From a virus (Duplodnaviria > Caudoviricetes), in IMG/VR virus record IMGVR_UViG_3300031994_000010, positions 96,001 to 160,000 of that record: DNA of 64,000 nt. The stretch is one strand, 5' to 3'. Below are positions 37,060 to 63,593 of this stretch, piece by piece. The position numbers and the translations under genes were made by a program. Every line of letters begins with the position of its first letter. The first letter of the stretch is position 1. The notes under the pieces were generated by a model. It saw nothing but the letters and a program-made list of their open reading frames with translations. It did no database searches and was not told the origin of the DNA.

Positions 37060-38484
37060 TTATGGAGTAAGATTACTTAGATCAATATAAATTTCAGGGG
37101 GAGGTGATGCTAAATCTCCTGTTAAGGGTATTTTTTTCGGAGTATTAGAAGTCGCTGCCTCCCAAGGAGTTCTAACAATTACAGGTGTTCCAGCACGATC
37201 GGTAGCCTCTAAACCTACTCTCATTAAAGCTTTCTGCCAAAGAGGAGTGTAGTGATCATCATCACTATTTAACCACTTTTTCATATATTCTTTAGGTTTA
37301 AACTTCCATATATCCTATTCCATTGTATACCTGGTTCCAGCAGCATCAACTCCTTCGAATAACCGATGTCCAGCGGCATCGTATCCAACATTTACATCGG
37401 TATCTATCATTGACGTAACTCCTTGTGATCCAGTAGTTCTTACTTTACCCGACATAGGTTCAGTTTTAGAAGTGCCGTATACTTGAATATTTTTAGCTTT
37501 ACCAGAATAATTATCAGCTACATAATCAGTATGTGTTCCAAAATCTTTTCCTTGAGCTTTTTTATAAAGTCCAAATCCAGAGTCTATTTCTTTTCCATAA
37601 AGAAAAGCATCTATTACATCATCTTTTCCTCTAAGGTTTTCTGGAATCCAATCAAAACCTCCGTAATAGTATTCTTCTGGTGAAGCAAATCTAAATGAAT
37701 TATAATAACCTTTGTTTCCAGTAGGAGTACCTGTAAGAATATACTTTCCGATTGCTCTCATTCTTTGGTAATCTTTACTAGCTATGATATCTTTTATATT
37801 ATTTAGATTGGATTTTAATCCATCCTACATAGGAGAAGTTCTCATGAAAGTTTCTATTCCTCTTCTTGAAACATTAGTTCCATATTTAGGAACCCAGTAT
37901 CCTCCTACCCACATTCCTGGATTTGTCCATTCTGCAGGTTCTTTGTCAAGACCTGTCCAATCATGCATATTTTCGGCCCACGATTTACCTGTAGCAAGAT
38001 TCATGCCAAAGTCTACGGCTTTACTTCCTGCCCATCCTCCTGCCATTGCAGCAGCGGCAGTGATAGGTGCCGAAAACGCTGCACCTCCCAATCCTCCAAT
38101 GATTATTCCTGGTACGGTGTATTTTCCTGGAAGAACTTCATTGTGAGAAAGTCGATAGTTGAGTTCCCGGAAGTATTGGTTGGCTGCGTCTACAGGTGCA
38201 GAAACCTCTTCCGCTGGTTTAACTTCTCCTTGGTTTGCATCAGGATAATTAGTTTCTCCTTGTGCATCTATGTAGGGTTTGTTGTAGTTGATCTGCTAAA
38301 TGTATTCTTGTATTTGCTGCAAGAGTTCTGGTGATGGATTATCGACGACTGTTCCGTCGGGAGCTACTATTTTAAGATTTTTTGCTCCCAACGCAGAATT
38401 TTTAATATTATACTTCTATCCTTCTTTTGTAGTAAGAACGTAAGAAGTTTCATCAGTGGGTTCGTTATTAATTGTTAATGCCAT
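37060..38484 (-). CDS. code-15 protein, 474 aa (probable virion/late protein)
   Basis: ATG 38484 (MALTINNE...); joins ORF fragments 37825-38091, 37315-37761, 37060-37284 in one frame broken only by TAG. Confidence 0.8.
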
Positions 38485-38729
38485 TCTAATTAATATTTAT
38501 TAAGGTAAAATAGGGCAATGCCTCTATTTTGGCGATTATTAATTGTTCTTATACATTACTTTTTATGCCCAAGAAGCTGGACAGTATAATGGTTCGCGAG
38601 ATTTGTTAGAATTGATTTTTTTGTCAATCCTATCCATAAGTTCCTCTAAAGTAATACCTTCTTTTTTGGCCCTTAATTCTAATACTAAACGATCAATCAT
38701 ATTTTACTTAGATTTCTTTTAACATAAAT

Positions 38730-40406
38730 TTAGTCAGAATTTGACTGACCATTTATTTTGATATTTCCTCCTTTTTTAAGGAAGCGTTCATTATATAGTT
38801 GAATGTCGATAGGATCATAATAGTTTAGAATATCTGATATGTCAAGATTTCCATGGCTTTTTCCTTTATTAATCATACTGTTGAACGCGGAATTTACTTT
38901 TTGTTCGAAAATCTCTGGACTAGTTTTTTCTAGTTCTGGATATCTTCGTCTTAGAACATCTTTAACTGTTTCTCTTGCGGAAACAACTCGTGCTCTAACT
39001 TCTTCAGGCATTCGATAATATGATGATGGATTATTTTTAAATTTTGGTAACAGCCCATTATTATGTTCTATCATTTTTGCTAAAGTTGGGTTTAATTCAT
39101 TCCATTCTGAAATAATACTAGGGTCTGCCCCTAATGTATCCTAATAGAAATTATATATGTTACCAGATGCTGCATGTCCATTAACTTCATGAATTGCTGT
39201 ATCTCTTAATCCTGAGTATGTTCGATTCTAATTATGTCCTCGAATTAAACTACTAGTAAGATTATTATCCACACTTAAAGAAACATCGGATTTGGGAGCG
39301 TGATTGGGATCATCTAAATACTACCAATAGTAGAAATCATTTTCAGTATTAAACTGACCAAGTGAATCGTCAGTTATGTGTCCCTCTCCTTCCATCAACT
39401 GTGTTCCTTCCAAATTATTCCGATATATATCTTTTGCTTCTTGTATCTCTCTTTCAGAGAATCCAGCATTTCGCATTCTTTGCTCCCAAACTGGACTACC
39501 ATACATATCATATCCAGCTTGTTTAGCATCACTAAACGCAAGAGCTTTATCCATATCATCGAGGGATAATGTCCTTGGTTCTATAGTTGTTGCTTTATCA
39601 GTATAAGAAGACTTCTGCTATGCTGAATAAGGTCTACGTAAAACTCCTTGTCCATTAACCGTAACTCCTCCAGTTTCTTGTACTGCATTTTGTACACCAG
39701 ACTATGGTTTTTCTACTAAGTCAGTAGCTACCTGTCTTGGTTTAAATCTTGAAGTCCATTTAGAAGCAGCTGTTCGGGCATTCTTAAATGCCTTAGCCGC
39801 AGCTGGAGTTACTCCTAAGTCAAACATAAGATCTAAATCCTAATCTTCAAAGAATCCAGGATTTTCTGGATCCCAAGGAGCTTTGCCACTTTTAATTGTT
39901 CCTATTAAACGGCTAGGCATCATAGAAGGAAATACATACTAAGCAGTAAAGTTCGATACAGGAGTATCAATATTTTGTAAATAATTATAAGTTGGATTCG
40001 TTACTCCAGTATAAACCATAGAAGGATTCATACTAGCAGAGCTGACCATACTTCTTTCTAGGTTTTGCATACCTGGAAGTAATACTCTGTCTCCAAACCA
40101 CTCTAATCCTGCTCTTACTGGTTTTATTGCTGCTCTTGGATCAAATGCAGAACTATAAGTATATCTAGGATTCCAATGAAATTCCTTACCTGCATCAAAG
40201 AAATTACGAGGAGTATTCTACTAATCAATTTGACTCTTTATTTTTCCAGCTAACTCAGGAGTAACTTCAATTGGATTACCATCCGGTCCTGATATTTTTA
40301 GATTATCTTTTAAAGTCCCACTTTCAGATATTGCTGTATCAAAAATCCTATAAGGCTATCCATCTATTTCAAATTCATACAATACTTTTTTATTATCTGT
40401 AGGCAT
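38730..40406 (-). CDS. code-15 protein, 558 aa, zincin-like HEVNGH motif
   Basis: ATG 40406 (MPTDNKK...); fragments 39321-39554 and 38730-39074 in same frame; AIHEVNGH...PEEVRAR. Confidence 0.75.
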
Positions 40407-40497
40407 AGGTATTAAATTTTTAAAATATATTATTCAAATATTTATCTATTATATAAAATTCTTGTTCCATTTTGCTCCGTATTTTATAGTAGATTTG

Positions 40498-40923
40498 TTA
40501 TATCAATAAATAAAGGATAATATAGATGAGAATAGGAACAACTACACAGATAATAACCGATGCAGTCCAATAGTCCCATCCTATTCGTTGAAACTTTAGC
40601 AAGAATTCTACCGAGAGTTGAAATACCGTATCACACCATTTGCTAAAGAACTTGCGTTTTGTTATGATGATATATGTCCAAAGAGTTACCCATAATGTTG
40701 TAAGTATAGGTAACTGATATAAACAATCTACCATCATACACCACGTTAATGGTATGATAAGATAATATCCAATGATGTTAACTTCATTGTATGTTAGGTG
40801 AAGACACTTTGCTATAATTCTCAGACTTGCAGCTGTTGCCCCGAAGACGCCTAACACGATCAGCATGGGGGCCGCAATAATTAGGGTCTTTGATGTTTTC
40901 AAAAAATTCATTTTTTTCTTCAT
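40498..40923 (-). CDS. multi-pass membrane protein (TAG-free)
   Basis: hydrophobic 141 aa ORF. Confidence 0.7.
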   Translation of the reverse strand: MKKKMNFLKTSKTLIIAAPMLIVLGVFGATAASLRIIAKCLHLTYNEVNIIGYYLIIPLTWCMMVDCLYQLPILTTLWVTLWTYIIITKRKFFSKWCDTVFQLSVEFLLKFQRIGWDYWTASVIICVVVPILIYIILYLLI

Positions 40924-41080
40924 CGGTTAAACTATTAAGATAACATTTAAGTGTTAATAAATCTCCATCTGGCTGAATTGGCGGGCATTTCTCGTCAATA
41001 CATAATCCTGCTCCTGCAATAAGGAATAGGTATCCAAGACAGAGGATAATAACGAATAGAATAATTAGAATTAATTCCAT
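40784..41080 (-). CDS. hypothetical membrane protein
   Basis: N-terminal TM; overlaps next gene. Confidence 0.5.
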   Translation of the reverse strand: MELILIILFVIILCLGYLFLIAGAGLCIDEKCPPIQPDGDLLTLKCYLNSLTDEEKNEFFENIKDPNYCGPHADRVRRLRGNSCKSENYSKVSSPNIQ

Positions 41081-41128
41081 TTTTCCTGCTAAGTTACGAA
41101 ATATATTTAAATTAAGCGAATCCGTTGA

Positions 41129-42784
41129 TTATTCATTAATTGTGGATTCGGCACGATTTTTGTTATATTCAAAATTGTATAAAGGATATGTTAGATTCCT
41201 CTATGCAAAGTTAAAGTTGAATGGCTAATCAAGTGAAACTTCAAATGGGGTAGAATAGCGAGCTCCTGGTATTTGTTCATTGGCAAATAAATTCATCGTA
41301 TTACCTTTAAGGAAATAATCTCCAACACTTCCCGATTTTGCTACAGAAGTTTTTACTGCAAAGGGATGTTCAAGAGTGAATGGCTTTGCTCCTACCATTC
41401 TTCCTACTTCTCTATTAATCCATGGAGTATTGCCAATATTTTTCATGGTTTTCTATAGTTTATCTCCAGTACTCCAAATGAAATTTCCTACTTTAGTACC
41501 AGCCTATTCACCTAATAAAGAAGTTGTCTTATCCATAGCTGTACCTCCAAATGAAAACAATTTATCATTGATATATTTTCCTGCTTGATTAAAAAGCGAT
41601 CTTAGTGGTTGAAGGTCCCAAACATCACGCATCATGTAACGATTAAACGAAGTTCCATCTGGTGCCTAGAATTGTCCATCGTATCTTATTCCAACACTTC
41701 CTCCATTGTTTCCTATAAAATCACTATGTACGTCGTATCCATTTCTAGTAGCCTATCTTATAGAAACTTCTGGATGTCTTTCTTTAAATAATCCAAACAG
41801 ATTATAAGGCGACTACTCTGCGTCATACTGATATGTTCCATTCTCATTTTTCTTATAAAAGGGTGTACTTTCCTCTGGGGCACCTGCATATTTTGAAACA
41901 GCTTGTGCTCTTCCGACTTCAGAAGGAGCATATTCTTCATCACCACCATAAGTCCTAAGTTTACCTTTTTCTACTAAGGTTACTGACTAATCCCCAGTTT
42001 CTGGGTTTATCTTAACTTTTGGATATTCTTTAACTCCTCCTTTAGTAAGTGTTGTTATAAAAGATGGAACTCGCTACGCTTGACTATATCCATAACTTGT
42101 TCCAAATTCATTTGCAAATGTTCTAGCTACAGTTGGTTGAATTGCTTTATTAAAAAGACTGAATCCTATTGGTGCTGCGAAAGATCCAATTATCTATCCT
42201 GCTTCTTTATTTCCAAATTCTTCACCAATTTTTCCTCCGGCATAACCTCCTAACATAGAAGTTCCAAGTCCAAAGAGTGCAGTATGTGGTGCAGCAGCAA
42301 AATTCCCTGCCATTGCCATAGCAAGAGGCGTATCTCTTCCTACGAAACGGGCGAAGGATGGGGTTGCTCTCCATTGGTCGGATACATTTGTCATCTACCC
42401 AAGACCACTATGTAGTCCCCATCCTGCCATAGCATTATTGAGCCATACTTGATTACCATCCCTGATTTCTCCGTGAGTGGCTGCATAAGCATCAGACTAC
42501 TGTTGTGTAGGTTCGGTATGTGTTATTCCATATTGTTTATCTTGTAGTCCTTTTTGGTATCTCCGATAGCTTTTATTTGCGTTTTCTGTTGCTATTCTGC
42601 GATTTGCTCGTCTTGTTTGTTGTTTTACCTTTTGATCTTCTTCTAGCTATTTTCTATTAACTGTTACGTTTGAATTTGTGTTTGTCCCAGGGACGGCTGT
42701 TGCTTCTTTCTCCCATTTGGCTAATTGTGCTGGGGAAATATTAATTTTCAGCCGTCCTGATGGGTTTTGAAATTTTTGAATCAT
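41129..42784 (-). CDS. code-15 protein, 551 aa (probable virion/late protein)
   Basis: ATG 42784 (MIQKFQNPSG); only TAG interruptions to TAA 41129; DVWDLQP...KPF motif. Confidence 0.8.
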
Positions 42785-42794
42785 TTTCTTTTTT

Positions 42795-43328
42795 TTATTG
42801 AATCAGGTCCGAGGGTGCCACAACGAGTTGGTCGGGCGACATTCCTCTTTTTTTCATTTTGTCTTTTAACCCTGCGATATTATACTCGCTGATTTTTCTT
42901 GGCTTGCATAGTTCTATACCGAATTGGTTTTTATAGATTTCCCATACAAGTTCTGAGCAATAGTACTTTCCGTTGTTGAACTTAAAAGCAAGGTCGTAGG
43001 GTATTCCAAGATATTGCTTATAACGTACTTTTACGGGTTGTTCGATCACTCTCACTTTCTTTACCTTATGAAGCCGTCCTCTTGCTGTCCATTCCTTAAT
43101 GGGTGTCAGCTTGACTGTGCTGGAGGCCTCAAGTACATAGAGCTGGTTGTTTTTCTCGACTACAATTCCACAATGTGACCAAGGTGAAGCTGTAGCATAC
43201 TGAATGAGCGGTGACTGCCTACTTGTTGACATCTGGAAAACGATGTCGCCTTCCTTGTAGGAGGTGTCATTCACCATAAACGATACACTTGCGATAGCGA
43301 GTGCGACTAGTAATAACGCTTTTTTCAT
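42795..43328 (-). CDS. YiiX/YebB-like permuted papain-like (NlpC/P60) hydrolase
   Basis: EGDIVFQ, SHCGIV, PYDLAF, YYCSELVW. Confidence 0.88.
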   Translation of the reverse strand: MKKALLLVALAIASVSFMVNDTSYKEGDIVFQMSTSRQSPLIQYATASPWSHCGIVVEKNNQLYVLEASSTVKLTPIKEWTARGRLHKVKKVRVIEQPVKVRYKQYLGIPYDLAFKFNNGKYYCSELVWEIYKNQFGIELCKPRKISEYNIAGLKDKMKKRGMSPDQLVVAPSDLIQ

Positions 43329-43334
43329 GTAATA

Positions 43335-43904
43335 TTAGGGTTTTATATATTCTCCAGTAGGTCCCCAATAAGGGACTATTCCATGTGGGGTTCCCCAAGT
43401 ATAAGGTCCAAACCCACTAAATTTATACCAGGGCATTGATCTTTTTAGTATTGTTGCACCATAAGTACCGCAATTGTGATCAAGTATCCTATAAGGGGTA
43501 TTAACATAAAAACCATTTTCTCTATCTCCAGATTCAGCACTTTGCATTAATTTTATCATTTTATCTTCGTCTGCACCTTTGATATAGTGGACTCGTGTAA
43601 CACCCCCAGAATGACCATACATGGCATCTAATTGTCTTGCATAGTTATCAAGTTCTTTACTAGTTGGATTTCCAGGTGATTTCATTCTAAATGAAGGAAC
43701 ACTAATTCTTCTAGCTACTCCCTAGTTTTCTCTATCATATCTTCCGTATTCCGAACCTCTTGTAGTTCCAGTGTCTTCATCAACAGCTATTACAGCACCG
43801 TGACCAAGACCAACTCTTCCACTAGATCCAGGAACCTTTACCTAATAAGCTGGAAATTCTACATACAGTCCATCAGGAGATTGTTGATTAATTGTTAAAG
43901 CCAT
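43335..43904 (-). CDS. code-15 permuted papain-like domain protein, 189 aa
   Basis: ATG 43904 (MALTINQQ...), two TAG; GHGAVI...EYGRY...HNCGT. Confidence 0.75.
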
Positions 43905-44422
43905 TTTATTTTATGTTTTCCTTGTATTAAATTGTTTATATAATTATAGTAGTCTTTAGGTGAAATATTAATATGTGCCCAATGCCAACCATCAGAATTT
44001 CTAAAAATTTGATATTCTCCTTTATCTCGATAACAATTATTTGGAAAAATATTTTTTTGTTTAAAATCGGAAATCCATTGATCTCCATTCCAGATGGCTA
44101 TATGCCCAAAAACCGATTTATTATTCTGAGGTAATACAACTACATCACCTTTAATTGGAACATAGTTTTCTACAGTAATCTCTTGGTATCCTAATTGCGG
44201 CAATACTTTATTATAAGCATATGCCGGAAGAATTGGACATTGAAAACATCCTCCATGATGAATTGCTCTCATACAATACCAAGCACACATACATCTAGAA
44301 CGTTCATTTGAATGTTCTGTAATGTAGTTAACTACTAAATTATTATTATATCTATAAGGTAAATTAGATCCGATAATAACAGCTAAAATAATTATCATCG
44401 AATACTTAAATAATCTCTTCAT
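43895..44422 (-). CDS. CHAP/NlpC-P60-like peptidoglycan amidase
   Basis: CAWYCMRAI...GDVVV...GHIAIWNGDQWISDFKQ. Confidence 0.8.
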   Translation of the reverse strand: MKRLFKYSMIIILAVIIGSNLPYRYNNNLVVNYITEHSNERSRCMCAWYCMRAIHHGGCFQCPILPAYAYNKVLPQLGYQEITVENYVPIKGDVVVLPQNNKSVFGHIAIWNGDQWISDFKQKNIFPNNCYRDKGEYQIFRNSDGWHWAHINISPKDYYNYINNLIQGKHKIKWL

Positions 44423-44443
44423 ATAAAAAATCTTTTAAAAATA

Positions 44444-45619
44444 TTATTGATTCATTATGTATACATCGCTACCAGCGGCCCTAGCTGCTCTTGCATAGCT
44501 ATCAGTGCCTCCTGGAACAAATGTCCAAGCTCTAGCTGCGGGTGAATATCCTCCCCAGTTAAAAATATTTTCAGGATTAAATTGAGAACTTCTACGGAAC
44601 GGTAAAGTAGCAGAACAAGCTCCGGTTGCACAAGTATTTGTTATACTATATTCATCTCGATTAGGATCATTAGCTTGTCCATATATCCATTCTGTAGCTC
44701 TTTGAGTATCAACATCTGGTATAGTTATTGCCTAATATGCTCCAGTTTTAGTATCAGGTAATAATCCTTGAACTCTGGCAACATATGTTGAATCATTGTC
44801 ACTGGATCCATAACTTGGTAATGATATTCTTCTCCAGTTACCACCTTTTACAGTTGGACGTACGTGTCCAAAACCACTAGTATATCGTCCATACTCATAA
44901 TAATTACTAGCACCATCTGGACCAACCAATATAAATGCAGAATGTCCTACAGGAACATCTGGATTTCCTATAGCAGCTCCAACATCTACTCCACCAACTT
45001 TTAAAGCATTTGCAGATTTTCCCACAAAGTTAGGGTAATGAAGATAAATAGCATGTTCAGTACCACTAGTAGTTGTAGGGGTATTACTTTCTTCTTTTTT
45101 AGTAGAAGACGAACTTTTAGAAGACTGCTAAGGAGCTGGAGGAATATACCCGGCACCTCCTGTTGTAACTGGTCTAGGGTTGTTAGCACGTGCTTGTTCT
45201 TCCCGTTGTTGTCTTGCTTCTGATACTGTACGGCCATTAACAGTAGTTCTTGTTTGCTACGCTCTTGCAGAATAACCTCTAGGATTTGCAGTTACAGTAA
45301 CTTCTGGTAAACCATAACCCTATCCTGGAGCTAGTCTTCCTCCTAAAATTGGATTATATCCTGGTACATTTGTGGGATCATTACTCGTCTAACCATACTT
45401 TGGACCAAAATTAGAAGAAGACTGGGAACCTCCTATTCTTACATTTGTAACAGTTCCTTTATTTAAGTCTACATAATAGCCCATCTTTAAAGCTTTTGTA
45501 ACAGCATCTCTAGTTCTTCTTCCCATTTTACCGTCAACTTCAGCTGCTCTAGTAGCATTTTTTCCATAGGCTCCTATATCAAATAGTCTTGCCTATAGTT
45601 GTTTAAGTTTTTCGTTCAT
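44444..45619 (-). CDS. code-15 peptidoglycan-binding domain + permuted papain-like domain (candidate lysin), 391 aa
   Basis: KQL[TAG]ARL...VDGKMGRRTRDAV PG-binding motif; GHSAFI...EYGRY...NTCAT. Confidence 0.78.
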
Positions 45620-45647
45620 AATTTGTTTATTTATTTAATTTATTGAT

Positions 45648-45688
45648 AAAAAATAAAGGCCCTACCCCCACTCAGGGAGCAGGGCCTT
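45648..45688 (-). terminator. rho-independent terminator closing hairpin array
   Basis: AAGGCCCT/AGGGCCTT stem with U-run on minus strand. Confidence 0.6.
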
Positions 45689-45967
45689 GGCGAGAAGTAA
45701 ATTTCGTTCTTATTATTAAAATAGGAACTTCTTTAGCCTGCTAAGCGGAGAGTAAATATTAATCCTTAATTAAAATAGGAACTCTCTTAGCTTTTGACGG
45801 GGAGTAAAAAATTCTTAATCCTGTAAAAATAGGAACTCCCTTAGTCTTGTTGTAGCGAGAAGTAAAACTTATCCTTAATATTTTAAATAGGAACTTCTTT
45901 AGCTACGAATCTTAACGGAGAGTAAAATAATCAGCTTTAATGATAAATAGGAACTCTCTTAGTTAAG
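45689..45967. repeat. five tandem ~55 nt covarying hairpin units (putative ncRNA array)
   Basis: unit CG-RRRAGTAAA-N~17-AAATAGGAACTYYY-TTAG; inner and outer stems differ per unit but stay paired. Confidence 0.85.
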
Positions 45968-46366
45968 TTAAAATAAGCTTCCTACATCTGTCATAGAGCA
46001 ATTAACTCAAAGGCAAATAGACTTCATATTCGATGCAGAATTACTTCTACAAGTTTTCAATCCATCACCACTTTTATTTACCTCGAAGTGCAGATTCTCA
46101 CTGCTTTTCTCTTTCACAGTCTCCATCTGGTTGCTTTACCAATCGCGCTGACCTCAATCACGTGTTTGCCACTACAAGGTCTTTCAACTGTCAATTCAGT
46201 ATGCCCATTGAAGATTAAATCTTCGCCCTCGGAAGCTTATTATAATACTACTAACTCTTCACACAGCCTTTCGGATTGTGCTAAACTAACCGACCCGTAG
46301 CTCATACTTTGGAGGCCATCCCAGTAAGGTTTCGTTGATTTCGGTATAGTAGTATTTTTCTCAGAG

Positions 46367-48070
46367 TCAGTTCCCTGAGAAAAAGTTTATCAAGTCACCT
46401 TTAGAGGTGAGTTTGATTTCAGAGTCTTCAGAGATTCGAATCCCTTTCATTTGAAGCACTTTCCTTACCGTAAGGTAATTGCAGTCAACTAAATGATTGA
46501 GAATCTTTTCTCTAATGGATGTAGGAACCAACCCTTGACCTACATTACACGAATGGAACACAAACTTTCCATCCTTGAAATATCCAAGAGTGACATCTCT
46601 CATACCTGAGAAAAACATTTCTGCTTTATAGATAATGTTACGTGGATCTACCATGTAACCTCTACCAAAATCAGTAGCGTCTTCTTGAGCAACAAAGAGG
46701 TCATACTTGTAATTGGTACTTCCATTATATTCATTAACTGAAACAATGGAATCTTGTGGTTTGTTCCTAAACCATAGAATCTCAGTAGCTTCAGGATCTG
46801 CATCAGTCATATCCCCAGAAAATACTATTTCTTCATCGGCATTGTAATTGGCATTCCAACCAATACCATAACCGTCTATAGTACAACAATGCAAATCAAG
46901 ATCTCTGCATCCCCATTTATTGCGCCAATAAATACCAATCATAGTATTTCTATCAGCACAATTAATGTAAGAACCAAGAGGAATGTTACCGATGAAATTC
47001 TTTTCTGATGTTGGCATTGCAAGTTCAATTCCTTTAGGAAGAGATATTGACTCTACTTCTGGAACTTTACTAACAATAGCTGTCAGAAGGTGATTCTTCA
47101 GTTCTTTAGAAAGTTTCCTCTTGGAAGATTCTTTGTAGAATGCTTTACCATTCCTTATGACATAATAGCCAGTAGGATTAGTTAAAACATTATATATTTG
47201 AACTAACTTAAAGATTGGAGCCTTAATAAAGAGTTGTTCTCTCTCATAATAATCCATTTCTTCAAGTTGTAGCCACGGAGATTTTCTCATTGGTTTATGC
47301 AATTTAGTTGCAAGTTTCCTTATCATATTTATTGTGTGACAAAGTTCTTTACACTTTTTAAACTGCATAAAGACATCTTTATTTCTGTAGAAGACTGATG
47401 CAAGAACTTCTTTGTTCTTAGTAAGAACAGGTAACATACTTGATTCAGGTCGAATCTGAGCAAATGTTTCCTTGTTCTTAATAAGCATAGAAATGTTGAA
47501 CCACTTCCACAGAATCCAGAGTAAACACTCTTGACCATCCTTGAACTTGTAATCTATAGGAATAAGCCTAAGCTTTAACTCTCTATTCTTTACCTTATCT
47601 AAAGAAAGAGTAATGTTATACTCTTTAACTAGATCGGTAATAGAAATTAGAGTGTCAGCAGTCATAGCAATGTTGCTATATGCTAACTTAATCAAAGCCT
47701 CTTTAAACTCTTCAAGAGTAAAGCTTTCGAGAACTTTTAACTCCTTATATGGAAATTCTGGTAAATCTCCATCATTAGGAGTCCAAGCTTCTCCTTCAAA
47801 GTTTGTTCCATAAGTAGACATATAATGTTTTACTTGATCTAAGAATAATTCCCAACGAGTTTTAGATGTTACATCATTCCAACTTTTATAAAAAGTTGAA
47901 TTGACGTTTATCTGCTGCTCACGGAAATATTCATAGAGCCACCTGTAACACAGGTTTTCTGGAACAAACACTCCTTGTTTAAGGGTCAGCTCATTCATTT
48001 GATTAAATGAGACTTTGGGCTTACTAGTCAATAAGACCTTGCCAAAGATTTTAAATACTTTCTTTTCCAT
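46367..48070 (-). CDS. large hypothetical protein with C-terminal TerD-like domain
   Basis: 567 aa; GIYW...DLDLH...GWN...FSGDMTDA...ATE resembles TerD domains. Confidence 0.6.
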   Translation of the reverse strand: MEKKVFKIFGKVLLTSKPKVSFNQMNELTLKQGVFVPENLCYRWLYEYFREQQINVNSTFYKSWNDVTSKTRWELFLDQVKHYMSTYGTNFEGEAWTPNDGDLPEFPYKELKVLESFTLEEFKEALIKLAYSNIAMTADTLISITDLVKEYNITLSLDKVKNRELKLRLIPIDYKFKDGQECLLWILWKWFNISMLIKNKETFAQIRPESSMLPVLTKNKEVLASVFYRNKDVFMQFKKCKELCHTINMIRKLATKLHKPMRKSPWLQLEEMDYYEREQLFIKAPIFKLVQIYNVLTNPTGYYVIRNGKAFYKESSKRKLSKELKNHLLTAIVSKVPEVESISLPKGIELAMPTSEKNFIGNIPLGSYINCADRNTMIGIYWRNKWGCRDLDLHCCTIDGYGIGWNANYNADEEIVFSGDMTDADPEATEILWFRNKPQDSIVSVNEYNGSTNYKYDLFVAQEDATDFGRGYMVDPRNIIYKAEMFFSGMRDVTLGYFKDGKFVFHSCNVGQGLVPTSIREKILNHLVDCNYLTVRKVLQMKGIRISEDSEIKLTSKGDLINFFSGN

Positions 48071-48087
48071 TTTCTTGTTTTATTTAG

Positions 48088-48659
48088 TAGCGCAGACGGG
48101 ACTCGGACCCGTACGTTCATTACTGAACACTGGATTTTCCTGCCACTCTATGTTACCATAGCCAAATGATTAGCCATCTACTTGGCAATGACCGCCGCAT
48201 CTTTCAGCGACCGTAGAGATTCGCACTCTTCCTATTTTTTCAAGGCAGTGTAATCATCTGTTGTGGTCTGGCACCAAACTAATGTTTGGTGGAGGTTAAA
48301 CCTCACTGTCTCAGTACCATATTGAATTCTTGCGCAAGTTGTGTCTGTTTCAGTGATAGTAGCACATGTAAGTCTACCCATTTGACAGGCCACACAATTC
48401 AACTTAGGTATCTCCCGTTCAGTCTCTACACGATTATGAGAATTACTATGAGGTGTTCTTATGTTATCTCTTGTTCATTCTCATTTTCGCTCGGTGTTGT
48501 CCTTCCACATTATTGATTAGTGAGGTTACATATTTTCTCTCTTACGAAGGCTAACGTCTTTAAGGAGTTTCACCGAATTTAGGAGATTCTACATAGGGAT
48601 TTCTCGCCTATGCACTCAATTTTTAAGTCCAGGGCGTCTACCAATTCCGCCACTGCGCC
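48088..48659 (-). tRNA. tRNA-Leu(UAA) split by group I intron
   Basis: 5' exon GGCGCAGTGGCGGAATTGGTAGACGCCCTGGACTT + 3' exon AAAATCCAG...GTCCGAGTCCCGTCTGCGCTA; joined loop CTTAAAA. Confidence 0.88.
48139..48624 (-). ncRNA. group I intron in tRNA-Leu(UAA), 486 nt, after U34
   Basis: P1 ACUU/GAGU, AAATTCGGTGAAAC, GTGTAGAGACT core, terminal G; same site as cyanobacterial tRNA-Leu introns. Confidence 0.85.
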
Positions 48660-58475: not shown

Positions 58476-58934
58476 TTATCTACTAAAATAACACCATATC
58501 TTAGATTCTCCATAAGGATTATCTTCATCGTTAATCCAATTAACTGCTAACTATACCATCTTTTGTTCTAACATCTTATCACTATCTTCAGGAAACCACT
58601 CTTTTAGTAATGGTAACATATCACTACAAATCATATTAAGAGTAACTTCAAAGTCCCACTTATTATAAGGATATATCAGTTTCCTTTTATTCTAAGAGTA
58701 TAAAGATGTAACATCGTCCCAGTATGGCCCATAATGTTTCCGTCCATTCTCTTCGTAATACATTTTAGAAATCTATTCTTTAGCAAATTCTTCATCGAAA
58801 TGTTTACCTTGAGTACTTTCATAAACTTTCTTAGCAAGTTTAGTAAGTTCTTCTTTAGGTACATATTCTTCCATTGCTTCAGAAAGTATTTCCATATTAC
58901 CGCCATACTTCTTTACAATATTTTTAATGTCCAT
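58476..58934 (-). CDS. code-15 hypothetical protein, 152 aa
   Basis: MDIKNIVKKY...HFDEEFAKE[TAG]...YNKWDFEVTLNM...NDED...KIWCY. Confidence 0.75.
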
Positions 58935-59403
58935 TGTTTACAGCTTTTAAAATTTGAGAAAGAGTTGACTCGATTCCACCAATAGATTGTTCGATTCGGA
59001 CAAATCTTTCTTCAGTCTACTACTGCTATTTATAAACTACATCTAGTTCAGCTACTAAACCTTTAGCAACTTCTAATCGTTTCTAACAATTATCTACTCC
59101 ATCTATATAAGTCTAACATTCACTCTCTATAGATTTAAGAATAGAAACTAAAGGAACTTTATCAGTAGCTATTATTATATTAGAATCAGACTACATTTCT
59201 GCAGTCTACTAATCTGCAGGTAATGTCCATATCTTAATTTGTCCTTCGGATTCAATTGAAACATCGACTAACATTGGCTGACCAAACACTGTATTCATTC
59301 TTGGTGGAGTAGCATCCTAAACTACTTTACCCTACTAATAAGATAAATTCTCTTTATTAAGAATGTATACAGGGAATCCTTTTTTCAACTCTTTAAAATT
59401 CAT
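58924..59403 (-). CDS. code-15 coiled-coil protein, 159 aa
   Basis: MNFKELKKGFPVYILNK...; only TAG interruptions; ATGA overlap upstream. Confidence 0.75.
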
Positions 59404-60302
59404 GAATTAGTACTCGACTAAGTTTCTTTAGTTAAAGTTACTGCATATCCAGGAACATAAGCCTGAGGATATGTAGGCAACTAATGAGCAGCAATAGCAT
59501 TAACTTGAGCCTATATTGGGGCAACAGCAGCGGCTATAGCAGCTGTATCAGCGGCTTGAATCTCTAAAACATTAAGTCTATCACGAAGAGCATTCTTTTC
59601 TTCAAGTAAGTCAGCATATCTACCTTGTTCCCAAGCGTTTCTAAATGCATCAATAGATGCGCGAGTCAGAGTATTCTCTGCTCTCATTCCAGTGAGTAAG
59701 TCTTGTGTCTAATTAATTGTACGAATCTAATTCTCGTAACCCTAATTAGTAATAGCACTATTTAAAGTGTTAGTCTACTGAACAGTCTATAACTAGTTCT
59801 AGAAACCAGACTACTGAACTTCAGTTCTTAAAGTGCAGCAACAATCTTTTAAACTTTGAATTATATTCAAGTTACCAGAAGCAACTGCATTTTGTACACC
59901 AACAATACTCAGACCTGTTTGAGCAGCGGTTTGAGCTATACCCATATTTACAGAATTAATAGCTTGAACTATTGCATTATAATCAACATTTAAATTCTAA
60001 GCTAATTGAGACTGTGCAAATTGATTACCCTACAGAGCACTCAGTATAGAATCAGTACTTTGGTTCTAAGAGATTTGATTAGCTAAAGCATTTAATTTAG
60101 CATCTACATCGGTTGCTACGACTGCTCCAGCTACTCCACCTCCACCATTTCCGAATCTGTTACCGAACCCACCATTCTAAAAAATGGAAAGCAAGATTAA
60201 ATAAGCCCAAGGGTTATTAAACATAGAGTTCTACTGCATAGCCAGCATACTTGCAGTATCCATTCCTCCAGTAGGAATAGTAATTACTTTATCTTCATTC
60301 AT
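59400..60302 (-). CDS. code-15 Gly/Asn/Gln-rich coiled-coil protein with DCCC motif, 300 aa
   Basis: MNEDKVITIP...NNPWAYLI...GGFGNRFGNGG...DCCC; >12 TAG, no internal TAA/TGA. Confidence 0.8.
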
Positions 60303-60371
60303 AGTTTGTAAAAATTAATTAAAGTTTTAAGGAAAAAATCTGAATACATTTATATTATCTCGCACGTGCAA

Positions 60372-60410
60372 TGCAAACATATAAATAGTATTTTAGAAAA
60401 CCAAATTAAA
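60372..60410 (-). promoter_or_regulatory. Bacteroidetes-type promoter (TTTG ... TAnnTTTG)
   Basis: minus strand TTTGG-N-TATGTTTGC upstream of 60302. Confidence 0.4.
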
Positions 60411-60440
60411 TTTTTTCAACCAGATTGAAGCATAAAGTAA

Positions 60441-60487
60441 AAAAATTAAAGGCCAACTCCAAAATATGGAGCTGGCCTTTTCTTTTT
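60441..60487 (-). terminator. rho-independent terminator
   Basis: AAAGGCCA.CTCCA/TGGAG.TGGCCTTT stem. Confidence 0.6.
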
Positions 60488-60532
60488 GTTTATAAAAAAT
60501 TTTTTAGACTATCTAATACTATAAAAATCTTA

Positions 60533-61546
60533 TTATTGTTCAACCTTAGTCCAACCATATGAGCCAAGGTAATAGTCTCCTGTTCCCATCCATACGTCAT
60601 ATCCACTACTGCCACTTGGCACTGTTAATGTGCCATTGGTTTTGACACTTTGAAATGTACCATTTTGTATTGTAGGTGCTGTTGTTGCTAATGAAGTTAT
60701 ATTTGTTAAAGCACTACAACCATAGAAAGCAGCACCAATGCTTGTAACTCCATTACCAATTGTTACACTTGTCAAACCAATACATTCGTAGAAAGCCGCA
60801 TTACCAATACTTATAACACTATCTGGTATTGTTAGTGTTGTTAAACCAATACAATGGCCGAAAGCATTATCACCAATGCTTGTAACACCATTACCTATTG
60901 TTACGCTTGTTAAACCTGTACAACTACCGAAAGCATTAAGACCAATTGATGGTGTGGAATCGCCGATTACTACGGTTTTAAGATTCAACCAAAAAGTCTT
61001 AATTGAGGCATTTAATTCACATTTGGCGTTATAGTTTAATACTTCAAGTGCTTCAGTTCCAACGAAAGCCTCATTACCAATGCTTGTAACGCTACTTGGT
61101 ATTGTAATGCTTGTTAAAGCACTGCAATTATAGAAAGCCTTAGTGCCGATGGATGTCACGCTGTTGGGGATAGTGACGGAGGTCAGACCGGTGCAATCAT
61201 AGAAAGCATAATTGCCGATGGATGTAAAAGTATCAGCGATAACAACATGTTTAATTGTTGCTATACTACTGAATAGTGGGGCGTTATTTCCTACTGTCGT
61301 TGGGTCATTAAACTCATACTTTATTATGTGCTCACCCACGCTGTCAAACTGATAAGTTGTCACTACACTATCAAGTAATACACCATCAACCTCAATAGAT
61401 TTTATACTACTATCATAATTAGTACAAATAGTTGTAGGAGCACTTATATCTTGTATATCATAATAAACAACAAGTCTTGTTTCCTATTCTTCTTCCATCT
61501 TAGGAATTGGCACGTGTGCCATTGAATATCCGATTATTTCTTTCAT
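60533..61546 (-). CDS. BspA-type leucine-rich repeat (LRR_5) protein; one TAG at codon 21
   Basis: repeats CTGLTSVTIPNSVTSIG..AF; in-frame ATG 61546 MKEIIGYSMAHVP. Confidence 0.85.
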
Positions 61547-61560
61547 AATTTTTTTTTAAA

Positions 61561-61728
61561 TTAATTAGTTTGTATTGCTTGTATTCTATTTTTATAATTA
61601 CTCAAAACAGATGCCGCTTTATAAGCACTAACTGACCCTGCTGGTACATAGATAGTAACAGCATTTTTCCAAGAGTTATCATCTGGAGTCTATAAAAATG
61701 GTGATATACTATTAAATTTATTATTCAT
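61561..61728 (-). CDS. 55 aa LRR C-cap remnant (code 15)
   Basis: MNNKFNSISPFL[TAG]TPDD...TIYVPAGSVSAYKAAS...RIQAI. Confidence 0.55.
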
Positions 61729-62917
61729 TCTTTATTTTATTTATTACTATTCCAGTAACAACTGGAACTTTTATCTGTGATAATTTAAAATTCTAAACCC
61801 ACTATGGAATCTATGACTTAGGAAGTTCAGCTAATCCTGTAGCGTAATCTTCCATATATCCGTTTGTCTTCACTGTATTAAAAAGATTAACCACCTAGTC
61901 GTCAGTTAAACTATTTATATAAGTATTTAATTCTTCATAAGTGGGCTAATGTCCTAACTAATCTGCTAAATATTTTCTAATCTCTGCGTTAGTAGCTCCC
62001 ATTTCTGATACTAACTTTGAATCCGCATGAGCTACTCTTCTAGGTAATAAATATGTGTCTTTAAGTAATTTACTTTGTGCTCTACTATAAGGAACTAACT
62101 ATTGATAACCGTGAGTTCCTTCATGTAAAGCAGTACTAGCAGCATCTGGTGACCAAATATCATTAAGATAGTTTCCAGAACTAGTATGGACTCCCTAAAT
62201 ATCTTCAGCTATAGGTCTATAATTTAAAGCTTCCATTTCTGCTTTAGGCATAGCCTACATATTGCTATAAGTAGTAACCGAAGGAGACTTAACTGCTTCC
62301 TATGCTTTTAAAGCTCTATTATAAGAACGTCTCGCAGTTATTCTCTATCTCCAAGGTAACTAAATTACTGCTGTAGGTTGACTTGTTCTTCCAGTAGTTA
62401 TCATCTAAGTTACTGGTTTCTAAGCAGATTGTGGTAGCCAAGACAGTTCTCTTAATACATTCTACTATATTAAATAGTTATCTGGAATCTATAAAGTTTC
62501 TGGATTATATATAAGGTTATCAGTTTGAAACTAAGCTAAAGCATCATCAGATACTTTTGTATCTACAGTATAAGCTTTACCGTCAATTCCTTTGGTAGTT
62601 CTTACTTTGTATCTTGTTTTAGCTAAAGGACGTACTACCTTAGCTAAAGGAGATAAAGCAGCTCCTTCTACTATAAATGTTCCAACTGGATCTGCTCCAG
62701 AAAGTCCTATTATTCTAGGACTAAAACTATACTAATCTTTCTTTCCCTACAACTTTTCTCTAACGGTTGTTTTCTTTCTTAATGTTGGTTTCATTTCAGA
62801 ATGAGGAAGAGTTCGGGCTTGCTATTGTTTTCTTTTCTAATATTGCTAAGCCTAAACTCCTTCTCTTCTATATTTACTACCTTGAATAGTATCTCCGTTC
62901 TATAAACGAAGTATCAT
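61721..62917 (-). CDS. code-15 zincin-like (HEGTH) protein, 398 aa
   Basis: ATG 62917 overlaps upstream TGA; about 25 TAG and no TAA/TGA until 61721; ALHEGTH...EMGATNAEIR. Confidence 0.8.
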
Positions 62918-63147
62918 AATAACAAGGCAAGAACTGCTAAGGCACAACCAATCAATCCGAAGACTGCTACTTTATCATTTACTGGATTACCAAGCATTTG
63001 ATTATTAACAATCTCTTTGGCTATAACAAAAATGGCACCAAAGATTACAGCAAACCAAATGTCAGCTAATCCAAAGTAACCAAGTAATGTCATCCCTACT
63101 CCAAACAAAAATCCTACAAAGGAATTATTCATTAAATTATTCCACAT
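62914..63147 (-). CDS. small multi-TM protein (holin-like topology)
   Basis: three hydrophobic segments in 77 aa. Confidence 0.5.
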   Translation of the reverse strand: MWNNLMNNSFVGFLFGVGMTLLGYFGLADIWFAVIFGAIFVIAKEIVNNQMLGNPVNDKVAVFGLIGCALAVLALLL

Positions 63148-63149
63148 AA

Positions 63150-63593
63150 TTAATAATACTATTTACCATTATTTGTATTTTCAGTTATCTTATTCTTTAA
63201 ATTTTTATCTACATAAATAGGAATCTTCCTACGAGGAGCACCATTCCTATTTTTTAATTTCAAGTTTAACTAATATCCTGTAAAGAAGGAAGCAATAAAA
63301 TCTACATCCATCCATTTCCCATTCTATCTAGCTCTAACAAAATCTTCACCCTAAGTCTTTTCCATATAAATCTAAGCTAAAGAATTAGGAAACTCAAAAG
63401 TAACATTGTTATCTATAATATCATTGATAACAAGTTTTACAGAATCTTTAAATATTTGAATTGCAAGGACGTCTCGATGTCTGGTATATCCCATAATATC
63501 TTGACAATCCTTGCAGTTTATTTTTAGTTTTTTTAAATTGAAATTCTCAAACAAATGTCTTAGGTGAAAAGCATGCCCTAATGCGAATCTCAT
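63150..63593 (-). CDS. code-15 hypothetical protein, 147 aa
   Basis: MRFALGHAF... continues through TAGs to TAA 63150. Confidence 0.7.

What the first reader, a model, noticed from the sequence alone, without database searches (positions are those of the whole stretch)
45648..48070. Array of five covarying RNA hairpins with invariant loop motifs downstream of a TerD-like-domain gene
Seen: five ~55-nt units at about 45689, 45743, 45796, 45852 and 45911. Inner stems differ but pair (AGAAGT/ACTTCT, GAGAGT/ACTCTC, GGGAGT/ACTCCC). Outer stems also differ but pair (GGC/GCC, AAGC/GCTT, GAC/GTC, GTAGC/GCTAC, CTTAAC/GTTAAG). The internal loop (G vs TTA) and AAATAGGA are invariant; the ~17-20 nt apical loop varies. 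A minus-strand terminator closes the array. Inference: selection on RNA structure, such as repeated protein-binding or decoy RNAs, or processed small RNAs, possibly ligands of the 567-aa protein (by analogy with Ro60/Y RNA).
Basis: partly seen in the sequence, partly recalled or inferred. Interest (0 to 1): 0.8.

Follow-up and report, generated by a model that had tools for sequence, protein, structure and literature searches.

The report
Handle-and-cargo RNAs beside TerD-fold protein
Five small folded RNAs that follow an unstudied phage protein gene belong to a widespread RNA family, absent from the databases searched, that almost always sits next to that protein's gene or inside tRNA gene clusters, so the two probably form a particle comparable to, but unrelated to, the Ro60/Y-RNA particle.

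Summary
Five 50-57-nt units lie at 45689-45967, are read on the minus (gene-sense) strand and end at a strong terminator. Each has an outer stem, a UAA bulge opposite a bulged C, a 6-bp inner stem, an invariant GUUCCUA and a variable insert ("cargo").

A covariance model built from 43 units finds only these five in the 174-kb phage genome. It also finds units beside homologues of the 567-aa protein in 14 of the 15 distinct phage or metagenome loci checked, and in 53 of 60 bacterial, archaeal or MAG loci. All 71 matches in the latter set lie on the gene's strand. In other large phages, single units sit inside tRNA arrays. Some of these carry a whole tRNA-like domain as cargo.

Stems are 98% paired and 7-8 of 10 pairs covary. 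G-U pairs occur only on the sense strand.

The protein has a C-terminal TerD fold (Z 10.6) and a confidently modelled N-terminal helical domain with no fold match. No TROVE domain or Y-RNA signature was detected.

Best reading: these are handle-and-cargo RNAs bound by this protein, analogous to Ro60/Y RNA. Binding is inferred, not shown.

The scan had already noted the same pair on other DNA. I found no database entry or paper describing it.

A second unassigned RNA of about 264 nt lies between the gene and the array.

The parts
48087..48659 (-). tRNA-Leu(UAA) gene interrupted by a long insertion. It ends about 17 nt before the protein's start codon and heads the transcription unit.
   Evidence: An earlier scan note (e1-5752252) reads it as an intron-containing tRNA. 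I checked this only partly. The 5' half matches the uninterrupted tRNA-Leu(UAA) of L017 at 48653-48634, and the 3' end matches at 48101-48087. Relatives L017, L019 and L020 have tRNA-Leu(UAA) upstream of the homologue. A terminator-like site at 48751-48718 precedes it.
46367..48070 (-). Gene for the 567-aa protein P0001: an N-terminal helical domain (about 1-345), a TerD-fold beta-sandwich (about 372-527) and a short C-terminal helical tail. It has no in-frame TAG.
   Evidence: ORF; no significant Pfam, PHROG, NCBIfam or PADLOC match (only a marginal PADLOC JetB hit at E 0.015). TerD fold. N-terminal model has pLDDT 90.7 and a best Z of only 5.7; more than 450 close homologues and 1364 clusters at 50% identity.
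46355..46384 (-). A 10-bp hairpin (UUUUUCUCAG / CUGAGAAAAA) whose loop contains the gene's TGA stop codon.
   Evidence: Read directly. An equivalent hairpin at the stop codon is present in L017, L041 and L042. Its function is not tested.
46246..46354 (-). Element W: an approximately 109-nt structured stretch closed by UACUACUA / UAGUAGUA.
   Evidence: Fold. Found otherwise only in the 86%-identity relative L042. A 22-mer from it has no match in viral contigs. No meaningful Rfam match (only chance-level hits at E 0.46-8.5, none in this stretch).
45975..46238 (-). Element X: a 264-nt structured RNA closed by AAGCUUCC / GGAAGCUU, with a T-loop-type hairpin GCAG-UGAGAAU-CUGC.
   Evidence: It is 83-96% identical to stretches in 16 other phage contigs fetched here. 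Most lie in or beside tRNA gene runs on the tRNA strand, several between tRNA-Glu and tRNA-Ser. The closing stem and three inner helices covary. No meaningful Rfam match (only chance-level hits at E 0.46-8.5, none in this stretch). It is absent from L041 and L017 at this position.
45911..45967 (-). Unit 1: P1 CUUAAC/GUUAAG, P2 GAGAGU/ACUCUC.
   Evidence: CM 55.2 bits. Its orthologue in L042 is 91% identical.
45852..45906 (-). Unit 2: P1 GUAGC/GCUAC, P2 AGAAGU/ACUUCU.
   Evidence: CM 64.4 bits. Orthologues are 96% (L042) and 91% (L017) identical.
45796..45846 (-). Unit 3: P1 GAC/GUC, P2 GGGAGU/ACUCCC.
   Evidence: CM 52.1 bits. Its orthologue in L041 is 87% identical.
45743..45793 (-). Unit 4: P1 AAGC/GCUU, P2 GAGAGU/ACUCUC.
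   Evidence: CM 60.8 bits. Orthologues are 88-90% identical.
45689..45738 (-). Unit 5: P1 GGC/GCC, P2 AGAAGU/ACUUCU.
   Evidence: CM 59.8 bits. Orthologues are 87-92% identical in L041, L042, L017 and L020.
45646..45688 (-). Intrinsic terminator that closes the unit: a 14-bp stem with 9 G-C pairs, then UAUUUUUU.
   Evidence: The same terminator follows the array in L041 and L042.

Best explanation
The five units are genes for small 'handle-and-cargo' RNAs, transcribed on the minus strand with tRNA-Leu(UAA), the 567-aa protein gene and two other structured RNAs, up to one terminator.

The handle is constant. It consists of outer stem P1 ending in a C-G pair, an A-rich 3-nt bulge opposite a single bulged C, a 6-bp stem P2 ending G-C and U-A, the invariant GUUCCUA on the 5' side, and an invariant U before the 3' strand of P2. 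The cargo is the variable insert. In this phage it is 17-20 nt and AU-rich, often with UAAGG. In other phages it can be a hairpin, an anticodon-arm look-alike or a whole tRNA-like domain.

Shown here: the RNA family is real, structured and strand-specific, and it is tightly linked to this protein family.

Inferred: the protein (TerD-fold domain plus a helical domain of unknown fold) binds the handle and forms a ribonucleoprotein. The cargo then presents tRNA-like or other modules to partners or targets, much as Y RNAs do for Ro60.

Further inference, weaker: the particle acts in tRNA or RNA handling during infection, for example quality control, or baiting or sensing enzymes that target tRNA. 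Where one unit sits just before the start codon, as in most Bacteroidota loci, the protein may also feed back on its own synthesis.
For: Structure:
- RNAalifold, unaided, returns exactly P1 and P2.
- 98.1% and 98.3% of cells are paired in two alignments. Of 10 pairs, 7 and 8 show compensatory changes. No shuffle of 500 reaches the covariation score, and slid controls fall to 29-54% paired.

Strand:
- 20 G-U pairs against 0 A-C on the sense strand.
- All 71 hits in genome loci are on the gene's strand.
- Units in tRNA arrays share the tRNAs' strand.
- A terminator follows the array.

Linkage, searching from the protein:
- Units flank the homologue in L017, L019, L020, L041, L042, L043, L022, L023, L024, L025, L027, L029, L004 and L016 (protein identities 27-87%), but not in L028.
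- They flank it in 53 of 60 genome-contig loci. Four of the seven misses lack upstream sequence.
- In the 98%-complete 411-kb phage G007, one of 8 units lies 70 nt upstream of the homologue.

Other support:
- In the window's own genome the only five units lie beside the gene.
- Units are individually conserved: orthologues are 87-96% identical, paralogues 72-81%.
- tRNA-like cargo occurs in L010, L002, L007 and L025, including one circularly permuted form.
- The protein family is large and unannotated.
Against: - No binding, expression or processing data exist, so the protein-RNA contact is inferred from synteny alone.
- TerD domains are known as Ca2+-binding stress proteins, not RNA binders. 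The N-terminal domain has no informative fold match.
- Many units in tRNA arrays lie far from the protein gene. One complete 35.5-kb phage (L006) has a unit upstream of an unrelated 614-aa ORF and no detectable homologue.
- The units used for the first alignment were picked with a pattern that required pairing, and the second set with the model, so the pair counts lean towards the structure.
- The five cargos of this window show no clear tRNA mimicry.
Confidence: 0.65

Rival explanations
1. The units are purely cis-acting: leader, attenuator or 3'-UTR elements that control transcription, translation or stability of the adjacent protein mRNA, with no role in trans.
For: In most Bacteroidota loci a single unit ends 11-120 nt before the ATG and is often followed by a U run, like an attenuator. 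In the window the array lies in the gene's 3' untranslated region, before the terminator.
Against: Several units lie inside tRNA arrays tens of kilobases from the gene (G007 has 8 units, 7 of them far away). Arrays of 4-9 distinct, individually conserved units are hard to explain as one regulator. Cargo can be a full tRNA-like domain. Feedback regulation is compatible with the main explanation rather than a replacement for it.
Confidence: 0.12
2. The RNAs are substrates or antidotes of an enzyme, as in type III toxin-antitoxin systems (ToxIN), where a nuclease cuts a repeat array into units that then inhibit it.
For: A protein gene is co-transcribed with a tandem RNA array and a terminator. 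The N-terminal domain keeps invariant His, Arg, Lys and Asn residues that could be catalytic (H82, R229, K231, N248, H258, R306, N307).
Against: The repeats are not near-identical (72-81%). Their position relative to the gene varies: upstream, downstream or both. Single units occur in tRNA arrays. There is no ToxN-like fold and no significant PADLOC match (only a marginal JetB hit at E 0.015). In type III systems the array precedes the toxin, with a terminator between them.
Confidence: 0.1
3. The units are independent stable RNAs of tRNA operons, for example processing spacers or tRNA-derived relics. Their closeness to the protein gene would only reflect shared residence in tRNA-rich regions.
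For: The units and the protein gene both sit among tRNA genes in many phages. Some cargos are tRNA-like.
Against: In 53 of 60 genome loci the unit lies directly before the gene. Seven of the ten such loci scanned had no tRNA within 2.5 kb. The window's genome has its 14-tRNA cluster about 17 kb away, yet its only five units lie beside the gene. The handle has no tRNA features, and ARAGORN and the Rfam tRNA model do not call the five units.
Confidence: 0.06
4. The repeats act as DNA: recombination sites, iterons, or hairpin promoters or origins.
For: They are tandem repeats with dyad symmetry. From memory only, GAAGTTCCTATT resembles the FLP-binding arm of the yeast FRT site.
Against: Compensatory changes keep the pairing while the sequence drifts. 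G-U pairs occur on one strand only. The bulges are asymmetric. Inserts of up to 110 nt are tolerated inside the stem. Orientation always matches the transcribed strand. The dyad covers only 6 nt, not a full recombinase arm.
Confidence: 0.02

Closest known systems
Ro60 (Rsr) with Y RNAs, especially bacterial and phage YrlA/YrlB (Chen et al. 2014, PMC4201824)
   Same: Small RNA genes, often several, lie next to the gene of one large protein. The RNA ends form a stem with a conserved, bulged protein-binding region. The inner part is a variable module that in some members is a tRNA-like domain, including permuted forms. Both occur in phages as well as cells. In size and layout the proteins are comparable: a helical N-terminal part and a separate C-terminal domain, about 540-600 aa in all.
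   Different: No TROVE or vWA domain by Pfam, by PDB sequence profile or by fold search; the C-terminal domain is a TerD beta-sandwich. No Rfam Y_RNA or YrlA match. The handle (GC-AUA-NNNNGU-UCCUA ... U-ACNNNN-C-GC) lacks the Ro-binding motifs GNCGAAN0-1G and GGUCCGA quoted in PMC4201824. The five units here have short, non-tRNA cargos.
TerD/TerZ/TerE tellurite-resistance proteins (PDB 2qz7, 2kxt, 3ibz, 2qng)
   Same: The fold of residues about 372-527 (Z 10.6 and 9.4). The family keeps D390, D392 and the SGD motif at 418-420, followed by acidic residues, which recalls the TerD Ca2+ sites. The link to Ca2+ sites is my inference from memory of the 2kxt work.
   Different: TerD proteins are single-domain, about 190 aa, and sit in ter operons. 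Here the domain is fused to a 345-aa helical domain, is not recognised by the Pfam TerD model, and is linked to RNA genes, not ter genes.
Type III toxin-antitoxin systems (ToxIN, CptIN, TenpIN)
   Same: A tandem array of short structured RNA repeats is co-transcribed with one protein gene and bounded by a terminator. Both are phage-related.
   Different: Those repeats are near-identical and precede the toxin, and the protein is a small endoribonuclease. Here the units are diverged paralogues, the order varies, the protein is unrelated, and single units lie in tRNA arrays.
tRNA-like and orphan stable RNAs in phage tRNA clusters, for example the anonymous candidates in the catalogue of over 10,000 viral structured RNAs (PMC10690425)
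   Same: Small structured RNAs embedded in phage tRNA gene runs, some overlapping ARAGORN calls with odd anticodons.
   Different: That catalogue gives no handle definition and no protein partner in its main text. I could not check whether this motif is among its entries, because its supplements are not held.

Membership tests
Ro60/Rsr (TROVE) protein family | TROVE domain detectable by sequence (Pfam PF05731) | tested here: not met
   No Pfam hit for P0001 at E<=0.1. PF05731 finds nothing in the whole 174-kb genome, while the controls D. radiodurans and B. thetaiotaomicron are found. A profile of 15 homologues matches no PDB chain at E<=1.
Ro60/Rsr (TROVE) protein family | HEAT-repeat ring fold in the N-terminal part | tested here: inconclusive
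   The N-terminal model is confident (pLDDT 90.7), but no Ro60 chain appears among the 50 listed rows (best 500 matches counted) of the Foldseek pdb search or the top 50 of the VIA wide search. The best Z is 5.7, over 58 residues. Absence from a list does not exclude a distant relation.
Ro60/Rsr (TROVE) protein family | C-terminal von Willebrand A domain | tested here: not met
   The C-terminal domain is a TerD-type beta-sandwich (Z 10.6 to 2qz7, 9.4 to 2kxt).
Y RNA / YrlA (Rfam Y_RNA, YrlA) | Match to the Rfam covariance models | tested here: not met
   No such match at gathering score in the window or in seven related loci, and none at E<=10 over 45600-46420.
Y RNA / YrlA (Rfam Y_RNA, YrlA) | Ro-binding sequence GNCGAAN0-1G (bacteria) or GGUCCGA (vertebrates) in the terminal stem (PMC4201824) | tested here: not met
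   The invariant handle positions are C, GUUCCUA, UAC and CG. Neither motif is present in the five units.
Y RNA / YrlA (Rfam Y_RNA, YrlA) | Terminal stem enclosing a tRNA-like domain | tested here: inconclusive
   Met by some family members elsewhere (L010, L002, L007, L025), but not by the five units of this window, whose cargos are 17-20 nt.
TerD domain family (Pfam PF02342) | TerD beta-sandwich fold | tested here: met
   VIA Z 10.6 (131 residues aligned, rmsd 3.4) and 9.4. Foldseek E 5e-4 and 7e-4, probability 1.00.
TerD domain family (Pfam PF02342) | Recognition by the Pfam sequence model | tested here: not met
   No Pfam hit at E<=0.1. The protein atlas lists a TerD-bearing cluster only as a weak neighbour: score 0.90, with 22% of members carrying the domain.
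Type III toxin-antitoxin | Near-identical tandem repeats upstream of a ToxN/AbiEii-type endoribonuclease | tested here: not met
   Units are 72-81% identical to each other. Here the array is downstream. There is no nuclease fold match and no significant PADLOC match (only a marginal JetB hit at E 0.015).
CRISPR array or solitary repeat units | Identical repeats alternating with unique spacers; match to a CRISPR repeat family | tested here: not met
   Tandem Repeats Finder reports no array here. The stems covary between units. There is no Rfam CRISPR-DR match.
tRNA | Cloverleaf recognised by ARAGORN or Rfam RF00005 | tested here: not met
   Both tools find the window's 14 tRNAs at 20.3-28.8 kb. 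Neither calls anything at 45689-45967.

The most novel reading that the evidence does not exclude
This is an independent, convergent counterpart of the Ro60/Y-RNA particle, built from an unrelated protein (a helical domain with no detected fold match plus a TerD fold) and an unrelated RNA handle. It is widespread in large phages and Bacteroidota. Its interchangeable cargos (tRNA pieces, anticodon-arm look-alikes, short loops) would bait, sense or recruit enzymes that act on tRNA. That would make it a programmable RNA-based layer of the phage-host conflict over tRNAs.
Probability: 0.35. Interest if true: 0.9.

Novelty: new variant of a known kind. Interest (0 to 1): 0.8.

Why it matters
The protein family has 1364 clusters at 50% identity and no annotation. 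The RNA family has no Rfam model. Each now gives the other a context.

If the protein binds the handle, this would be a second way, apparently evolved separately, of building a Y-RNA-like particle. That would suggest such particles are a general solution in RNA surveillance rather than a peculiarity of Ro60.

The modular cargos, which include complete and permuted tRNA look-alikes placed inside phage tRNA arrays, make the question of why large phages carry tRNA clusters directly testable. It becomes possible to ask which tRNA-binding enzymes or tRNA-cutting defence nucleases meet these RNAs.

In practice, the covariance model lets annotators label many 'empty' intergenic stretches and odd ARAGORN calls in phage genomes. 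Cultivable carriers (Tenacibaculum isolates, a Flagellimonas chromosome) offer a route to genetics.

Tried and rejected
- Rfam at gathering score on the window and seven loci, and at E<=10 on 45600-46420, gave only tRNAs and chance-level hits.
- Pfam, PHROGs, NCBIfam and PADLOC on P0001 gave nothing usable.
- blastn of the region against 50,697 phage records found no match.
- A close-relative peptide scan of viral contigs found none. An alignment-based scan was needed.
- The first genome-contig scan, with closely related sequences, found nothing, and the A3 alignment was too diverse to seed a scan. A4 worked.
- CsrB/RsmZ-like GGA sponge: rejected, because the GGA lies on the non-transcribed strand or is not general.
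- K-turn: rejected. The pairs next to the 3-nt bulge are compensated Watson-Crick pairs, not sheared G-A.
- A third helix between the handle's UCCU and AGGA in the cargo: AGG is enriched in phage-array units (33% against 12% in shuffles) but not in the units before genes (12% against 8%). It is therefore clade-specific at best.
- Anticodon-loop mimicry by the five cargos of this window: only unit 1 gives a 7-nt loop on a 4-bp stem, so this is not supported here.
- Ro60 fold: not listed by Foldseek or VIA for either model.
- RNase P-like reading of element X: no RNase P match at E<=10, so it stays unassigned.
- Protein partner in the genomes of units found by RNA pattern: most of those records are 1-46% complete, so absence there says nothing.
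- RNase T, RF-1 and TPR neighbours: seen only in three near-identical Tenacibaculum loci.
- Supplements of PMC10690425 are not held, so I could not check whether its catalogue lists this motif.
Full report
**Setting**

The window is part of a 174,440-bp virus record, positions 96001-160000. It is AT-rich. Nearly all genes are on the minus strand, and 14 tRNA genes lie at 20.3-28.8 kb. Several late genes become open only if TAG is read as a sense codon, for example 44444-45619 just downstream of the finding. The 567-aa gene at 46367-48070 has no in-frame TAG.

**The observation**

Five units lie at 45689-45738, 45743-45793, 45796-45846, 45852-45906 and 45911-45967. Read on the minus strand, each unit consists of:
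- outer stem P1 (3-6 bp, ending in a C-G pair);
- a UAA bulge;
- inner stem P2 (6 bp, RRRAGU with ACUYYY);
- UCCUAUUU;
- a 17-20-nt AU-rich insert;
- UUU, then the 3' strand of P2, a bulged C, and the 3' strand of P1.

The exact 11-mer AGTTCCTATTT occurs five times in the window, all in the array. MFE folds of the whole intergenic region on either strand show five separate hairpins. A strong minus-strand terminator (14-bp stem at 45688-45656, then a T run) closes the array.

It was written on the complementary strand, and it overlooked about 390 nt between the gene and the array.

**The RNA family**

A search of viral contigs with a loose pattern taken from the units returned 16 loci. In 13 of them the match turned out to be a complete unit with its own P1, a 3-nt A-rich bulge and a bulged C, although the pattern had required none of these.

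I collected 49 distinct units and aligned 43 of them (A2). The invariant positions are:
- the C-G pair that closes P1;
- G-U-U-C-C-U-A after P2;
- U-A-C at the 3' side;
- C-G (the bulged C and the first base of the 3' strand of P1).

RNAalifold, given only the alignment, returns exactly P1 and P2. Pair counts are as follows:

| Measure | Result |
|---|---|
| Cells paired | 98.1% |
| Pairs with changes on both sides | 7 of 10 |
| Cells with changes on both sides | 107 |
| Covariation score | 0.648, against 0.235 in shuffles (0 of 500 reach it) |
| Paired when the 3' partner is slid | 29-54% |

One caution applies. My collecting pattern required pairing, so this set leans towards the structure.

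A second set came from a covariance model (R1) run on 60 loci that were found through the protein alone. It gives 98.3% paired and 8 of 10 covarying pairs. That set in turn leans on the model.

The strand is settled by four points:
- 20 G-U pairs and no A-C on the sense strand;
- all 71 model hits in the genome loci are on the gene's strand;
- units in tRNA arrays share the tRNAs' strand;
- a terminator follows the array.

**Linkage to the protein**

P0001 has more than 450 homologues in the 90%-clustered collection and 1364 representatives at 50% identity, 967 of them at E<=1e-30. None carries a name or a Pfam domain.

| Set of loci (found through the protein) | Result |
|---|---|
| Relatives at 55-87% identity (L017, L019, L020, L041, L042, L043) | The same kind of array starts right after the stop codon: six units in L017 (one degenerate) and four each in L019, L020, L041 and L042; L043 ends inside its second unit |
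| Relatives at 27-36% identity from viral contigs | Units lie just upstream (L022 three, L024 six, L025 nine, L027 two, L029 two weak, L016 three), or on both sides (L023, L004). Only L028 has none. |
| The 98%-complete 411-kb phage G007 | Eight units: one 70 nt upstream of the homologue, the rest near tRNAs |
| 60 loci from prokaryote genome assemblies | 53 have a unit. Four of the seven without one lack upstream sequence. |

The 60 genome loci are mostly Bacteroidales MAGs. They also include Fibrobacter, Treponema, a Methanobacterium MAG, three Tenacibaculum loci (two from isolates, one from an uncultured assembly) and a complete 4.4-Mb Flagellimonas chromosome. In these loci the unit usually ends 11-120 nt before the ATG and is often followed by a U run.

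In the window's own genome the model finds only the five units beside the gene.

One exception needs noting. A complete 35.5-kb phage (L006) has a good unit 40 nt upstream of a 614-aa ORF with no detectable similarity to P0001.

**Cargo**

In other large phages, single units occupy slots between tRNA genes (L001, L007, L008, L010).

Several long hits enclose a complete tRNA-like domain: D arm, T arm and an acceptor stem with encoded CCA, with the anticodon loop replaced by a tetraloop. These are L010 10786-10896, L002 4428-4542, L007 4420-4537 and L025 2029-2142. One more, L025 2153-2277, is circularly permuted, with the acceptor stem capped by a loop. Two others carry a D-arm-like hairpin plus a stem with a canonical 7-nt anticodon-type loop (L002 2582-2654, L014 2139-2208).

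The five cargos of this window are short. Three contain UAAGGAU or UUAAGAAU, which can pair with the handle's UCCU. That pairing is not general, however: AGG is enriched only in phage-array units.

The units are not recent copies. Each has an orthologue at 87-96% identity in relatives, whereas paralogues within the array are 72-81% identical. Relatives have also gained or lost single units.

**The protein**

An AlphaFold model of the whole protein (pLDDT 80.7) matches TerD structures over residues 372-527: VIA Z 10.6 to 2qz7 and 9.4 to 2kxt, Foldseek E 5e-4 to 2qng and 7e-4 to 3ibz.

The N-terminal 345 residues, modelled with 86 sequences (pLDDT 90.7), form a helical domain. It has no match above Z 5.7 and no Foldseek match at E<=0.001.

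Invariant residues across 86 diverse members include Y83, R229, N248, R306 and N307. Nearly invariant are H82, K231, H258, D390, D392 and S-G-D at 418-420.

No TROVE domain is found in the protein or anywhere in the genome, with positive controls. RtcB is absent. An RNA-ligase-family gene lies about 54 kb away, outside the window.

**What lies between the gene and the array**

Four features occupy this stretch, in order of transcription:
- A 10-bp hairpin encloses the stop codon (46384-46355).
- Element W (46354-46246) is shared only with L042.
- Element X (46238-45975, 264 nt) is a separate structured RNA. Stretches 83-96% identical to it occur in 16 other phage contigs fetched here. Most lie in or beside tRNA gene runs on the tRNA strand, several between tRNA-Glu and tRNA-Ser. 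Its closing stem and three inner helices covary, and Rfam has no match.
- X is missing at this position in L041 and L017. The relative L042 has a version with an internal deletion.

So 48659-45646 looks like one stable-RNA operon that also carries one protein gene.

**Interpretation**

Shown: this is a real, strand-specific, structured RNA family, tightly linked to one protein family across phages and cells.

Inferred: the protein binds the handle, and the cargo is a variable functional module. The closest analogue is Ro60 with Y RNAs, whose bacterial and phage forms (YrlA) also combine a protein-binding stem with a tRNA-like domain and lie next to the protein gene (PMC4201824).

Membership in that family fails on each sequence-level feature that could be tested: TROVE, vWA, the Rfam models and the Ro-binding motif. 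The relation is therefore one of resemblance in working, not of family.

Rival readings are weighed in their own sections: a cis-regulatory leader only, a type III toxin-antitoxin-like pair, unrelated residents of tRNA regions, and DNA repeats. Feedback control by the unit in front of the gene is compatible with the main reading.

**Earlier notes of this scan**

After reaching the above, I found that the scan had already described the same RNA-protein pair on other genomes (e1-5682054, e1-5382342, e1-5688758, e1-5647246, e1-5325292), with the same comparison to Ro60/Y RNA. Two further notes (e1-5760121, e1-5747045) describe look-alikes of element X. These are unchecked AI notes. My conclusions rest on the calls cited here.

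I found no paper or database entry that describes the pair.

Noticed in passing
window 45975-46238 (minus strand): Element X, a 264-nt structured RNA with a covarying closing stem and a T-loop-type hairpin. Stretches 83-96% identical occur in 16 other phage contigs fetched here, most in or beside tRNA gene runs and several between tRNA-Glu and tRNA-Ser. No Rfam match. It is optional at this position: absent in L041 and L017, internally deleted in L042.
   Followed up: partly
window 46246-46354 (minus strand): Element W, an approximately 109-nt stretch closed by UACUACUA/UAGUAGUA. It is shared only with the 86%-identity relative L042. No match in viral contigs for a 22-mer from it, and no Rfam match.
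   Followed up: partly
window 46355-46384: A 10-bp hairpin whose loop holds the TGA stop codon of the 567-aa gene. Relatives have an equivalent hairpin, so it may be a processing or stabilising site.
   Followed up: no
window 37060-45619 and 58476-63614: Many minus-strand genes are open only if TAG is read as an amino acid (for example 44444-45619 with 6 TAGs, 61721-62947 with 25). The 567-aa gene and the replication genes are TAG-free.
   Followed up: partly
L010 10786-10896, L002 4428-4542, L007 4420-4537, L025 2029-2142 and 2153-2277: Handle units whose cargo is a whole tRNA-like domain with a tetraloop in place of the anticodon loop and an encoded CCA. One is circularly permuted. ARAGORN calls three of them (in L002, L007 and L010) as tRNAs with 2-nt anticodons.
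   Followed up: partly
L110-L169 (for example L142 2436-2486, L133 2434-2490): In Bacteroidota, Fibrobacter and other genome loci, one unit ends 11-120 nt before the homologue's ATG and is often followed by a U run. This looks like an attenuator or a feedback site.
   Followed up: partly
L165 374-6386 (Tenacibaculum sp. MAR_2009_124; the same in L164 and L169): Gene order: RF-1-domain protein, TPR protein, two to four handle units (two in L165, four each in L164 and L169), the TerD-fold protein, an RNase T-type 3'-5' exonuclease starting 7 nt later, then a cluster of four or five tRNA genes. The exonuclease neighbour recalls Ro60 working with PNPase, but it was seen only in this one lineage.
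   Followed up: partly
L006 9194-9253 (complete 35.5-kb phage): A good handle unit (42 bits) lies 40 nt upstream of a 614-aa ORF that shows no similarity to the TerD-fold protein family by profile comparison. This may be a second kind of partner, or a borrowed handle.
   Followed up: partly
own genome outside the window (G000 87920-88468 and 84983-85414): Two ORFs match the RNA_ligase family (PF09414), one above the curated cut-off. No RtcB and no TROVE protein in the genome.
   Followed up: no
window 45689-45967: In units with P2 = AGAAGU, the string GAAGTTCCTATT is nearly the FLP-binding arm of the yeast FRT site (from memory). Only GTTCCTA is conserved in the family, so this is a coincidence, but it could trip vector-contamination screens.
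   Followed up: no
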